Shown in pieces: positions 33,001 to 36,000 of a stretch of DNA of 64,000 bases; positions within the stretch are counted from its first letter, which is position 1; each line of letters begins with the position of its first letter. Made by a program: the position numbers. Source of the DNA: Styela clava (lineage: Eukaryota). The stretch spans positions 16,988,001-17,052,000 of the forward strand of contig NC_135253.1 in the NCBI RefSeq assembly GCF_964204865.1, in the 5' to 3' direction.

Positions 33001-36000
33001 ATGCAATCAGGAAAACTCACTCAAAATAATTACTATATTCTTGCTTTTCAGTTATCGTGATTCATCATTAACATGTTGCTCTTTACAATGTAATAATATA
33101 TCATTGGTGAATTAGTGAATTCTCACTGCTAATTTTTTTTTTCTGTAATTAACTTTTTTAGAAAATATCTAGATAGTTAGTTAAGTATTATTAGATTCTA
33201 TTGCTTTTATTTAAATGGAAGGAGAGTCATCTGAAATGGGTGGAACTGCGTCAAAAGGATCAGTTCCAGAGTTGAAAATACTGGTATGGAATATACAAGG
33301 TTTACTCGATGAATTCCTAACTGAACGTTCAAAAGGAGTCGTTGGAATTGTTGAAGGAAACAAGCCTGCAGTGATAATGTTACAAGAAGTAATAGAATCA
33401 ACTTATTCTTATTTTAATAAGGCTTTGAGTTCAAACTACATGGGATATTCCCCCTATGATTTAAGACAAGGATGCTCTCATTATTTCACTGCAATATTCA
33501 TCAGAAAAAAACAAATAGGTTCTACATCAGCTACAGTTACTGTGTATCCTGATTCATTACTAGGAAGAGATTTGATGGTCGTAAACGACGATTATCATGG
33601 TTATAAAATGGCTTTTATAACATCTCATTTGGAAAGTATGCCCAAAAGAATGGCTGAAAGAAAGAAGCAGCTTGCTAGTCTATATCAGACTATGATATCA
33701 CAACCGGATAATCAAACAGTAATTTATGGAGGAGACACAAATCTTGAGGATGAAGAATTCAACTCGGTAGTCAAGGATGGAAAGTTTGATCTCGATAAAG
33801 TAGCTGATGTATGGAATCTCCTGGGATCACCAGATAGTACTAAATATACCTGGAACACGGAATTGAATGACAACACTAATGAAGAAGGCCGCCACAGATT
33901 GGACAGGATATTTTTAAGACAATGTGGAAAGGAGACAACGCAGTTCTTTAAACCCACTAGCATGAAGTTTGTTGGTATGGAAAGATTGCCAAGTGGAAGA
34001 TTCATATCTGATCACTGGGGTTTAATCGTGCAATTTGCACAATAACTATAGTCAGCATATTGCCCTACAATATATTATTTTAGAAGTACAAATTTTCTTT
34101 GATAATAAAATCAGTTATCTTCAACTGGAGGTCGCCTGAACCCTTTTGGGGTTCATGAGCTCTGCATGCATAAGATGAAAAAAAAACTACTAACAAATGT
34201 GGCTTAGCTTTCTTTAAACAATTATTGGACACAACTCTATAAAACCAGACAGCACTGCAAAGCAGGATCTTGCCCATATGAACAAACATGTTTATCTGCA
34301 TCAAAAGACTATTCAGCATTTTATTGTATTTTCATAGGTTCATACCTTAAAAGTACGCTTCACACTGTTTGTACTTGAGTATATCATCTATGTACAGAGT
34401 TTCTGACATCACATCTTTTATCACCCTCCAAAGTCAAGGTCATTTCTGTGTGCAATTTTGATGAAAAAATATTGTTTCTAGTTGGACACATTACTTGTAC
34501 ATAACAGTATTGATTAATTTTATTTGAAGGGTTCTACAGCTTTTAAACAAATCCTTATCAAAATCCTTACTATTGCAATGGTTTGTAATTATAAAGTTAT
34601 TAGGAAATTCCTACTATTTATATATACACCACAAAGCTTCAATATTTATAATAAATTAAAATTTGAACTATTTTACTATGTCCCAATATCATGCTTTTTA
34701 GACTATATTTCATTTTTCATATATATATCAGCATGTTTGTTTTTTAATTCAATTGCCGTAAACTATGCCATTGTAAATTTATTCAATGCAATATTTTGTT
34801 TTAAGTTCAACTTTAACATATTTGTTCTATTTAATTCACTTTTGTAATATCAATGCAGGTGAATTGCTATAGCACTACTGCTTAAAAACATGGATGAGGC
34901 AATTGAGCAATTCCTAAGCATAACCAATACTGATTCAAGGGATATGGCTGAATATTATCTCAATGTCAGCAATGGAGATTTACAAATGGCATTGGGAATG
35001 GTTTATGAAGATGGTGGAGCTTCCAGCTCTAAGACAGAAGTCAAAAAATCTGATAATGATTGTGTTATTGTTGATGACTTAAAACCAAATATAACAGTTT
35101 TAGAGTGGAATATACAAGGTTTACTTGATGACTATTTACAAGAAAGAACAGTGGCGGTCGTGAATACTATTCGACAGTATTCTCCAACTGTGGTAATGCT
35201 ACAAGAAGTTATATTAGAGACATATCTATATATGAAAAGTGCATTAAAATCGACATATACTGGATTCTCGCCTTCAGAAATTAGTAGTCAATGTGGCCAA
35301 TATTTTACATGTATTTTCATAAATAAAAGTCTCTTCAAATCATGCACAGCAAAAGTTGTTTCATTCTCTGGATCAAGACAAGGAAGAGATATATTGATAG
35401 TTGAAGGTAAATGTCACAACCTTGATGTAGCAGTGTTGACGTCTCATCTGGAAAGTACTAAAACTGGCGAGCAAGAAAGAAAAAGACAGCTTGGTATATT
35501 GTATTCCACAATGATGCAATTTCCTTCTGTAAGCACTGTTATTTTTGGTGGTGACACCAATCTCAGAGATGCTGAGTTTACCTCTGTTGTTCACTCTGGT
35601 AAATTTGATGCTACATTGGTGAAAGATATATGGGAGATTCTTGGTTCTCCTCAAGATGTAAGATATTCATGGGATTTGCAAAATAATGACAATCAAGTTA
35701 AAGATGGAAAAGCAAGACTTCGATTTGCGAGAATGTATACTAGAGTTGAGACAAGCAAGCAACATTTCAAACCAACGGAGATGCGATTTGTTGGAATGAA
35801 GAGACTTTCATGTGGCATGTTTCCATCAGATCATTGGGGTATTTTGACCACATTTGCTGTATGAATATACCTTTACCTTGAGGTCCATGCCATCAGCAAC
35901 TATGACTTTCAGTTTTTCTGATTGATGTGTATCAGTTTCCAGGGTTTCACATTCCATGACACATTCCCAATCATGATCTTTCGCCAATATGTTTACATTT

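What the first reader, a model, noticed from the sequence alone, without database searches (positions are those of the whole stretch)
33215..35864. Tandem intronless TDP2 paralogs with complementary losses
Seen: A lacks the UBA domain, has GDTNLE and keeps RLDR. B keeps the UBA domain and GDTNLR but has RFAR (GCG codon) where the motif is normally RFDR. Both have WNIQGL. Established: canonical TDP2 has WNIDGL, GDTNLR and RFDR; the first Asp lines the metal site and the second is a conserved EEP-family residue. The core N, E, H, S, D, N, D, H residues are retained in both. Inference: a sub- or neofunctionalised pair, such as a ubiquitin-recruited attenuated form plus a free form with altered substrate contacts. 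Vertebrate TDP2 is single-copy and multi-exon, so these may be retro-derived extra copies.
Basis: partly seen in the sequence, partly recalled or inferred. Interest (0 to 1): 0.65.

Follow-up and report, generated by a model that had tools for sequence, protein, structure and literature searches.

The report
Old tandem pair of TDP2 genes
Two neighbouring single-exon genes encode diverged copies of the DNA-repair enzyme TDP2, one with and one without its ubiquitin-binding domain; both look functional, and the pair is a modest variation on a known family.

Summary
ORF A (33215..34045, 276 aa) and ORF B (34890..35864, 324 aa) are uninterrupted, head-to-tail and 844 bp apart. Both match only TDP2 among solved structures (A E 3e-45, B E 3.5e-48). 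A has the catalytic domain alone. B has a UBA-like domain plus the catalytic domain.

The copies are 48% identical. Synonymous sites are saturated (dS about 2.4, dN/dS about 0.21). Each is about 39-40% identical to human TDP2. So the duplication is ancient and both copies have stayed under purifying selection. Neither looks like a pseudogene.

The Asp-to-Gln change at the Mg2+ site is shared, so it most likely predates the duplication and is tolerated. Copy-specific changes are Arg-to-Glu, Phe-to-Leu and Arg-to-Pro in A's DNA cleft, and loss in B of the Asp that partners the catalytic His in related enzymes.

My best reading is a hard-wired split of the UBA-bearing and UBA-less TDP2 forms, which humans make from one gene. 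Origin by retroposition and the presence of a canonical copy elsewhere could not be tested. TDP2 duplicates in invertebrates are already reported. Interest is modest.

The parts
33215..34045 (+). Gene A: UBA-less TDP2 paralog, 276 aa, single coding exon. An in-frame TAA lies directly before the ATG.
33236..33238 (+). Second Met of A (M8). It has a purine at -3 and G at +4. Starting here gives an N-terminus MGGTASK, which resembles a myristoylation signal (lead only).
   Evidence: sequence read; the consensus is recalled
33284..34015 (+). EEP (Exo_endo_phos) catalytic domain of A, residues 24-267.
33296..33298 (+). A Gln28 (CAA) at the Mg2+-contacting Asp position of WNIDGL.
   Evidence: PMC4925160, PMC5778467
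33746..33748 (+). A Glu178 (GAG) where TDP2 has the DNA-cleft floor Arg (mouse R276).
   Evidence: PMC5778467 section 16
33899..33904 (+). A Leu229-Asp230 (RLDR). The Phe that contacts the 5' nucleoside is replaced by Leu, and the Asp is kept.
34104..34109 (+). AATAAA, 59 nt after A's stop. Candidate poly(A) signal of A.
34046..34889 (+). 844-bp spacer between the two genes. It presumably holds B's promoter and 5' UTR. It has no similarity to the sequence upstream of A.
34890..35864 (+). Gene B: TDP2 paralog with the canonical architecture (UBA-like + EEP), 324 aa, single coding exon.
34893..35024 (+). UBA-like domain of B (residues 2-45; Pfam UBA_4). The nearest solved sequence is the p47 UBA.
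35088..35855 (+). EEP catalytic domain of B (residues 67-322, as aligned to mouse and human TDP2 chains).
35115..35117 (+). B Gln76 (CAA) at the Mg2+-contacting Asp position.
35727..35729 (+). B Ala280 (GCG) in RFAR, where TDP2 has the Asp of RFDR.
36370..36375 (+). First AATAAA after B's stop (about 500 nt downstream). Candidate poly(A) signal of B.
33287..33312 (+). 26-nt stretch, 25 of 26 identical to 35106-35131 (codons of WNIQGLLD). It is the only nucleotide-level similarity left between the copies.

Best explanation
This is an ancient tandem duplicate pair of TDP2-family genes (5'-tyrosyl-DNA phosphodiesterase, EEP fold) in a non-human, AT-rich animal-type genome. Both copies have been kept by purifying selection and both are probably active Mg2+-dependent phosphodiesterases.

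B keeps the canonical layout of an N-terminal UBA-like domain, a linker and the catalytic domain. It is the likely nuclear, ubiquitin-guided enzyme that removes trapped topoisomerase II.

A is the catalytic domain alone. I infer that it does the job of the UBA-less TDP2 forms that humans make from the same gene by alternative starts, acting outside ubiquitin-guided recruitment and probably largely outside the nucleus. Its DNA cleft has been remodelled (Arg to Glu in the floor, Phe to Leu in the grasp, Arg to Pro in the cap).

The shared Asp-to-Gln change at the metal site is ancestral to the pair and compatible with function. B's loss of the Asp next to the catalytic His probably lowers or retunes turnover rather than abolishing it.

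Shown here: family membership, architecture, the substitutions, the age of the duplication and the constraint on both copies. Inferred: activity, localisation and the division of labour.
For: Family: 13 of 13 PDB hits for each copy are TDP2. The nearest Atlas clusters are TDP2 with UBA_4 for B (0.95) and UBA-less TDP2 for A (0.97). Foldseek ranks 1-45 for the A model are all TDP2 chains, although that model is of low confidence.

Age and constraint: A and B are 48% identical over 260 aa. Over 251 codons pS is 0.718, dS 2.37, dN 0.494 and the ratio 0.21. Both ORFs are intact, while shuffles carry 21-25 stops on average. Distances to outgroups are near-equal: 167.8 vs 158.3 bits to human, 155.8 vs 151.7 to mouse, 150.8 vs 143.6 to zebrafish. 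My hand count on the printed alignments gives about 94 (B) and 96 (A) identities to the human chain.

Catalytic N, E, H, S, D, N, D, H are kept in both.

UBA-less A: there is no UBA anywhere else in the window or in 31 upstream frames, and an in-frame stop sits before the ATG.

Each gene has its own AATAAA.

Precedent: human TDP2S and deltaN-TDP2 lack the UBA/NLS and are cytoplasmic or mitochondrial (PMC6628236, passages). Human TDP2 without residues 1-100 rescues etoposide sensitivity only partly, and the bare catalytic domain is not imported into the nucleus (PMC5137425, passages).

The WNxD position is family-level, not superfamily-level, in EEP enzymes (PMC5770160 table). The LINE endonuclease in this same window has Arg there (NIRSL, matched by eye).
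Against: There are no expression data, so transcription of either copy is unproven.

B lacks the Asp of RFDR. Its APE1 counterpart D283 (my recalled mapping) is in the superfamily-conserved set (PMC5770160), and APE1 D283G is listed as a reduced-function variant (PMC3679070). B could therefore be much weaker than assumed.

Both copies replace the Mg2+-contacting Asp (PMC4925160: Mg2+ is bound by the carboxyls of Asp122 and Glu152). Both also replace two hydrophobic 'grasp' residues, mouse L315 and I317, with polar ones (T/E in A, Q/K in B). Substrate or metal use may therefore differ from vertebrate TDP2 in both.

B's UBA-like domain has Gly where TDP2 UBAs have an 'absolutely conserved' Trp (PMC5137425; mapped by eye), so ubiquitin-chain binding may be altered.

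A has no recognisable mitochondrial or nuclear signal, so its location is a guess.
Confidence: 0.55

Rival explanations
1. B is a ubiquitin-recruited but catalytically attenuated form (the Asp-His pair is broken). A is a free, fully catalytic form with altered substrate contacts. The pair is held together by complementary degenerative losses in catalysis and targeting.
For: B alone has the UBA-like domain and alone lacks the RFDR Asp. A alone lacks the UBA and alone changes the floor Arg and the grasp Phe. The residue roles come from PMC5778467 (sections 16-17). The APE1 counterpart of the Asp is superfamily-conserved (PMC5770160), and D283G reduces function (PMC3679070).
Against: B keeps all other catalytic and phosphate-binding residues after saturating divergence. 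That is not expected if catalysis had stopped mattering. The consequence of Asp-to-Ala in TDP2 itself is not documented in any paper I could read. The APE1-to-TDP2 residue mapping is recalled, not computed.
Confidence: 0.22
2. Both copies are ordinary, fully active and largely redundant TDP2 enzymes. The substitutions are lineage-wide neutral or compensated variants, and the duplicate is kept for dosage or for different expression domains only.
For: The Gln is shared by both copies, so it has been tolerated for a long time. Distances of A and B to vertebrate TDP2 are equal. TDP2 duplicates with expression differences are known in zebrafish, and duplicates are reported in a tunicate, a crinoid and an octocoral (PMC11369425, section 17 and passages).
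Against: The charge reversal at a DNA-contacting Arg, the loss of a whole domain and the loss of a superfamily-conserved Asp are not typical neutral changes. Protein divergence of 52% is large for redundant copies.
Confidence: 0.18
3. One copy is an unexpressed or decaying pseudogene.
For: None directly. A's first ATG has a weak context (T at -3), and a MITE-like element lies about 250 bp upstream of it.
Against: Both frames are open over 276 and 324 codons. 0 of 2000 shuffles were stop-free, and the alternative frames hold 21-29 stops. dN/dS is about 0.21. All core catalytic residues are kept except one in B.
Confidence: 0.04
4. A and B are retro-derived extra copies that sit beside a canonical multi-exon TDP2 elsewhere in the genome. 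This concerns origin and is compatible with any functional model above.
For: Both coding regions are single-exon, whereas zebrafish tdp2a has at least 3 exons (PMC11369425 legend of Fig. S2). An apparently intact LINE ORF2 with endonuclease and reverse transcriptase lies 9 kb upstream.
Against: There is no poly(A) tail remnant, target-site duplication or flank similarity, though these would have decayed at this age. The neighbouring Arf-like gene is one ORF, and at least 263 residues of SPOUT1 lie in one exon, so few introns may simply be normal in this region. A and B score higher against human TDP2 than against the C. elegans enzyme, which fits them being this lineage's own TDP2 genes.
Confidence: 0.2

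Closest known systems
Vertebrate TDP2 (TTRAP/EAPII), e.g. human and mouse (PDB 5j3p, 5ino, 4gz1)
   Same: Same fold and same family. The TWN, LQE, SHLES, GDTN and SDH motifs are all present. B also has the N-terminal UBA-like domain and linker. Best E-values are 3.5e-48 (B) and 3e-45 (A).
   Different: Only about 39-40% identity (hand count). The Mg2+-contacting Asp is Gln in both copies. Grasp residues L315/I317 (mouse numbering) are polar in both. A lacks the UBA and has R276E, F325L and R241P. B has D326A, and Gly at the conserved Trp position of the UBA. The coding regions have no introns.
Human UBA-less isoforms TDP2S and deltaN-TDP2
   Same: A catalytic domain without the NLS/UBA module, coexisting with the full-length form (PMC6628236 passages). 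A is the same kind of product.
   Different: In humans these isoforms come from one gene, by an alternative transcription or translation start, and share an identical catalytic domain. Here the UBA-less form is a separate gene, 52% diverged from its partner. A has no evident mitochondrial presequence (its N-terminus is acidic).
Zebrafish tdp2a / tdp2b and the reported invertebrate TDP2 duplicates (Styela clava, Anneissia japonica, Dendronephthya gigantea)
   Same: Retained TDP2 duplicates, with one copy dominant for measured activity in zebrafish embryos (PMC11369425).
   Different: The zebrafish pair lies on different chromosomes, is ascribed to whole-genome duplication, has several exons, and both copies keep the UBA. 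The pair here is tandem, single-exon and differs in architecture. Whether the invertebrate duplicates resemble this pair is not stated in the text I read.
APE1 / exonuclease III branch of the EEP superfamily
   Same: Same catalytic scaffold. The Asp before the terminal SDH/His motif belongs to the superfamily-conserved set in APE1 (D283; PMC5770160). The WNxD Asp (D70) is only family-level.
   Different: Different substrate and DNA-binding elements. The correspondence of D283 to the RFDR Asp and of D70 to the WNIDGL Asp is my recalled motif mapping, not a computed alignment.

Membership tests
EEP superfamily (Pfam PF03372) | Profile match above the curated cut-off | tested here: met
   A scores 47.0 bits and B 32.9 bits against a cut-off of 24.5.
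TDP2 family | Closest to TDP2 rather than to other EEP enzymes | tested here: met
   13 of 13 PDB sequences at E<=0.001 are TDP2 for both copies. The top Atlas clusters are named TDP2. Foldseek ranks 1-45 are TDP2 and other EEP enzymes start at rank 46 (low-confidence model).
TDP2 family | Four catalytic motifs with N120, E152, D262, H351 (human numbering; PMC11369425 section 17) | tested here: met
   A has N26, E58, D174, H267. B has N74, E106, D222, H315.
TDP2 family | Phosphate-binding cap His and Ser (mouse H236, S239) and N274, D358 | tested here: met
   SHLES, GDTN and SDHW are present in both.
TDP2 family | Asp of WNIDGL contacting Mg2+ (human D122, mouse D132) | tested here: not met
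   Gln in both copies (A Q28, B Q76). Role of the residue from PMC4925160 and PMC5778467.
TDP2 family | DNA-cleft floor and cap Arg residues (mouse R276, R241) | tested here: inconclusive
   B has R226 (kept) and K191 (conservative). A has E178 and P143 (both lost) (my mapping).
TDP2 family | Hydrophobic beta-2-helix-beta grasp (mouse W307, L315, I317, F325) | tested here: inconclusive
   Trp is kept in both. L315 is T in A and Q in B. I317 is E in A and K in B. F325 is L in A and kept in B. A also has a 2-residue deletion in the loop.
TDP2 family / EEP superfamily | Asp of RFDR (counterpart of APE1 D283, superfamily-conserved) | tested here: inconclusive
   Met in A (D230). Not met in B (A280, GCG).
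TDP2 family | N-terminal UBA-like domain | tested here: inconclusive
   B meets it: UBA_4 E 8.8e-12, three helices at pLDDT of about 67-79, and the I-T-N loop and Tyr39 kept, but Gly29 at the conserved Trp position (by eye, with PMC5137425). A does not meet it.
TDP2 family | Mg2+-dependent hydrolysis of 5'-phosphotyrosyl DNA ends | not testable with these tools
   Needs a biochemical assay.

The most novel reading that the evidence does not exclude
The pair is a gene-level split of TDP2's two jobs, and the split is drifting further. B is becoming mainly a ubiquitin-guided reader or slow 'holding' enzyme for trapped topoisomerase adducts, having lost the Asp that tunes the catalytic His. A is a free, possibly membrane- or cytoplasm-directed phosphodiesterase with a recharged nucleic-acid cleft. 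A may act on other 5'-linked protein adducts, such as RNA-linked ones. Starting at Met8 would give A a myristoylation-like N-terminus.
Probability: 0.1. Interest if true: 0.55.

Novelty: new member of a known kind. Interest (0 to 1): 0.3.

Why it matters
If the two proteins really differ in activity and location, the locus is a natural experiment. It separates the ubiquitin-guided and the free forms of TDP2 into two genes. It also offers natural variants at three residues that structural work singles out: the Mg2+-contacting Asp, the DNA-floor Arg, and the Asp next to the catalytic His. That could inform how much each residue contributes to catalysis and substrate choice. Otherwise it is an ordinary old gene duplicate in a DNA-repair family where duplicates are already reported.

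Tried and rejected
1. Structure prediction. With only A and B as the alignment, the models were poor: B had mean pLDDT 38.6 and pTM 0.31, and A had 50.6 and 0.59. No active-site geometry can be read from them. The B model was not sent to fold search. The A model was sent despite its low confidence. I count its result only as weak agreement with the sequence result.

2. Search for a hidden UBA exon for A. tblastn of both proteins on the whole window at E<=10 found only the two copies. Pfam at E<=1 on 31 + strand frames of at least 25 aa in 31178..33272 gave no UBA. Pfam on 65 further ORFs of at least 75 aa gave none either.

3. Signs of retroposition or of the duplication unit. blastn of the flanks found nothing beyond a 26-nt coding stretch. 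No flanking direct repeats or poly(A) tail were found; the only A-run is 9 nt, at 34178.

4. Alignment of the window's LINE endonuclease to A and B by BLASTP was not significant (best E 0.39). The motif comparison is by eye only.

5. Primary TDP2 structure and enzymology papers (four papers, five look-ups) are not held. Residue roles come from a review and two other papers. No paper that I could search mentions the RFDR Asp of TDP2.

6. Taxon. There were no rRNA, tRNA or Rfam hits, and the Atlas taxa are uninformative.

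Full report
WHAT IS THERE

The window has no N. I do not take it for human. Its TDP2 copies are only about 39-40% identical to the human enzyme. The large exon of its SPOUT1 gene matches human C9orf114 at E 1.3e-107 but with many differences.

Two uninterrupted ORFs lie head to tail on the + strand. A is 33215..34045 (276 aa) and B is 34890..35864 (324 aa), with 844 bp between them. 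A's ATG is directly preceded by an in-frame TAA.

Pfam finds only the Exo_endo_phos domain in A. In B it finds a UBA_4 domain (residues 2-45, E 8.8e-12) followed by Exo_endo_phos.

Against all solved structures, each copy hits 13 distinct sequences at E<=0.001, and all 13 are TDP2. The best hit is human 5j3p_A, at 3.5e-48 for B and 3e-45 for A. The Atlas look-alike search agrees: TDP2 with UBA_4 for B (0.95) and a UBA-less TDP2 cluster for A (0.97).

IS A REALLY WITHOUT A UBA DOMAIN?

tblastn of both proteins over the whole 64 kb at E<=10 returns only the two genes. Pfam at E<=1 on 31 + strand frames of at least 25 aa between the upstream gene and A finds no UBA. Pfam on 65 other ORFs of at least 75 aa finds none either.

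A's first 17 residues loosely resemble the linker that follows B's UBA ('GGTASKGSV' against 'GGASSSKTEV'). That would fit loss of the 5' part of an ancestral full-length gene, but the stretch is short and of low complexity.

The neighbouring SPOUT1 exons were searched one by one.

AGE AND CONSTRAINT

A and B are 48% identical over 260 residues.

On a 251-codon alignment, corrected at the RLDR/RFAR loop, pS is 0.718 (saturated), dS 2.37, dN 0.494 and dN/dS about 0.21. A first estimate on a slightly misaligned 276-codon set gave about 0.23. Because dS is saturated, the ratio is an upper bound.

None of 2000 composition-matched shuffles of either CDS was free of stops (means 21 and 25 stops). The other two forward frames of the real genes hold 21-29 stops.

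Both copies are about equally far from outgroups. The bit scores for B/A are:
- 167.8/158.3 to human.
- 155.8/151.7 to mouse.
- 150.8/143.6 to zebrafish.
- 113/89.3 to the C. elegans catalytic domain.

My hand count on the printed alignments gives about 94 (B) and 96 (A) identities to the human chain.

The duplication is therefore very old and both copies have been kept by selection. A pseudogene reading is unlikely.

At the nucleotide level the only remaining similarity is a 26-nt stretch over the WNIQGLLD codons (25 of 26 identical). Its 20-nt identical run is reached in 1.2% of codon-resampled simulations. This was noticed after the fact and may be chance.

RESIDUE MAP

I placed the mouse numbering used in the review PMC5778467 (sections 16 and 17 read) onto the HMMER alignments.

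Kept in both copies: N130, E162, Y188, R216, H236, S239, D272, N274, W307, D358, H359, L134.

Changed in both copies:
- D132 to Gln.
- M214 to L (A) or Q (B).
- M215 to G in both.
- L315 to T (A) or Q (B).
- I317 to E (A) or K (B).

Changed in A only:
- R241 to P.
- R276 to E.
- F325 to L.
- A two-residue deletion in the grasp loop, with a two-residue insertion after it.

Changed in B only:
- D326 to A.
- R241 to K.

Roles of these residues:
- D132, E162 and D358 interact with Mg2+.
- R276 is part of the floor of the DNA cleft, and R241 is part of the cap.
- W307, L315 and F325 cradle the 5' nucleoside, and I317 contacts the next base (PMC5778467).

HOW SERIOUS ARE THE CHANGES?

The shared Gln needs two base changes from either Asp codon, and it is present in two genes whose silent sites are saturated. 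The simplest reading is that it predates the duplication and has been compatible with function ever since. A small gene-conversion tract is the alternative, given the 26-nt identity.

Across the EEP superfamily this position is not universally acidic. In the analysis of Neuwald et al. (PMC5770160, table and section 9 passages), APE1 D70 belongs to the exoIII/AP-endonuclease family-level set. D283, H309, N68, E96, D210 and N212 belong to the superfamily-level set. The LINE endonuclease in this very window reads NIRSL at the first motif but keeps CIDHI and SDH (matched by eye; the BLASTP alignment itself was not significant).

Equating APE1 D70 with the WNIDGL Asp, and D283 with the RFDR Asp, is my recalled motif correspondence, not a computation. 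On that mapping, B has lost a superfamily-conserved Asp. APE1 D283 is listed among functionally important residues, and D283G among reduced-function variants (PMC3679070, passages).

I found no accessible paper on this Asp in TDP2 itself. The four primary structure and enzymology papers were not held.

B still keeps every other catalytic residue after so much divergence. For that reason I think it is still an enzyme, perhaps slower or differently tuned, rather than a dead one.

B'S N-TERMINAL DOMAIN

Its nearest solved sequence is the UBA of p47 (1v92, E 2.5e-4). The full-length C. elegans TDP2 matches only weakly (E 0.23).

Rao et al. [quoted passage not shown]

By eye, B has I11-T12-N13 and Tyr39, but Gly29 where p47 has the Trp. 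The front ubiquitin-binding face therefore looks intact, and the 'back' face may not be. The AlphaFold model gives three helices there, at 10-residue-block mean pLDDT of about 67-79.

MECHANISM PROPOSED

The same paper shows that human TDP2 lacking residues 1-100 rescues etoposide sensitivity only partly, and that the bare catalytic domain is not imported into the nucleus.

Huang and Pommier (PMC6628236, passages) describe human TDP2S (alternative transcription start, mitochondrial presequence) and deltaN-TDP2 (309 aa, lacking NLS, UBA and presequence).

The most economical reading is that this lineage encodes the full-length and the UBA-less forms in two genes. B would serve ubiquitin-guided nuclear repair. 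A would act without that guidance and with a remodelled nucleic-acid cleft. Subfunctionalisation of alternative forms after duplication is a described pattern (PMC4417111, abstract only).

This division of labour is inferred, not shown.

ORIGIN

I see no local evidence for retroposition. There is no tail, no target-site duplication and no flank similarity. Such traces would in any case be gone at this age.

Few introns may be a local norm. The upstream Arf-like gene is one 277-aa ORF. At least 263 residues of SPOUT1 lie in one exon. Other genes in the window, such as the C2H2 zinc-finger exons, do look split.

An intact-looking LINE ORF2 lies 9 kb upstream, so reverse transcriptase has been available in this genome.

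Whether a canonical TDP2 exists elsewhere could not be checked.

WHAT IS KNOWN

TDP2 duplicates are in print: zebrafish tdp2a/tdp2b and carp, plus 'occasional' duplications in Styela clava, Anneissia japonica and Dendronephthya gigantea (PMC11369425, section 17 read).

My searches for TDP2 paralogues turned up only that paper. I found no description of a UBA-less/UBA-bearing tandem pair, or of these substitutions. These searches cover open-access text only.

VERDICT

This is a real, old, selectively maintained tandem pair of TDP2-family genes with different architectures. Its functional model is plausible in outline but over-reads the shared Gln, and it cannot be tested here. It is a new member of a known kind, of modest interest.

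Noticed in passing
window 33236-33259: A's second Met (M8) has a better start context (G at -3, G at +4) than Met1 (T at -3). Starting there gives MGGTASKG, with Gly2, Ser6 and Lys7. This fits the loose N-myristoylation pattern as I recall it, and could direct the UBA-less copy to membranes.
   Followed up: no
window 33287-33312 and 35106-35131: 25 of 26 bases are identical over the WNIQGLLD codons, in two genes whose third positions are otherwise about 40% identical. A 20-nt identical run was reached in 1.2% of codon-resampled simulations. The cause may be chance, a small gene-conversion tract or a nucleotide-level constraint.
   Followed up: partly
window 32243-32970: A MITE-like element bounded by 16-nt inverted repeats (CAGTGGTTCTCAAACT / AGTTTGAGAACCAATG, 94% complementary) lies about 250 bp upstream of A's ATG. 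A related 133-bp piece at 36464-36596 matches 56294-56426 on the other strand at 83%.
   Followed up: no
window 36623-37121: A tandem array with a 130-bp period, 3.9 copies and 86% matches lies downstream of B's candidate poly(A) signal.
   Followed up: no
window 18362-27232: A hAT-type transposase appears to be split by a LINE insertion. DUF4371 lies at 18362-19477 (+) and the hAT dimerisation region at 26852-27229 (+). Between them is a 1114-aa open LINE ORF2 (PHD-like + endonuclease + reverse transcriptase) at 21190-24534 (-), with a 243-aa ORF just upstream of it at 24710-25441 (-).
   Followed up: partly
window 30327-31160: A single-ORF Arf-like GTPase has a roughly 100-residue N-terminal extension. 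It is closest to ARL3 among solved structures (E 6.5e-31), and the match covers only the GTPase core.
   Followed up: partly
window 41966-43491 (-): A SPOUT1/C9orf114-type RNA methyltransferase gene lies in two coding exons. The large exon matches human C9orf114 at E 1.3e-107.
   Followed up: partly
window 39673-40635 (+) and 53668-55812 (-): Two long open frames (320 and 714 residues) are rich in Ser, Asn, Lys and Glu and have no Pfam family at E<=0.001. They look like large exons of disordered proteins.
   Followed up: no
window 47845-48874 (-), 60412-60717 (-), 63661-63999 (+): C2H2 zinc-finger exons, a THAP domain exon and the start of a Ctf8 homologue that runs off the window end.
   Followed up: no
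window 34893-35024 (B residues 2-45): B's UBA-like domain has Gly29 where p47 has Trp, and where TDP2 UBAs are said to have an absolutely conserved Trp involved in di-ubiquitin binding (with PMC5137425). The mapping was done by eye.
   Followed up: partly
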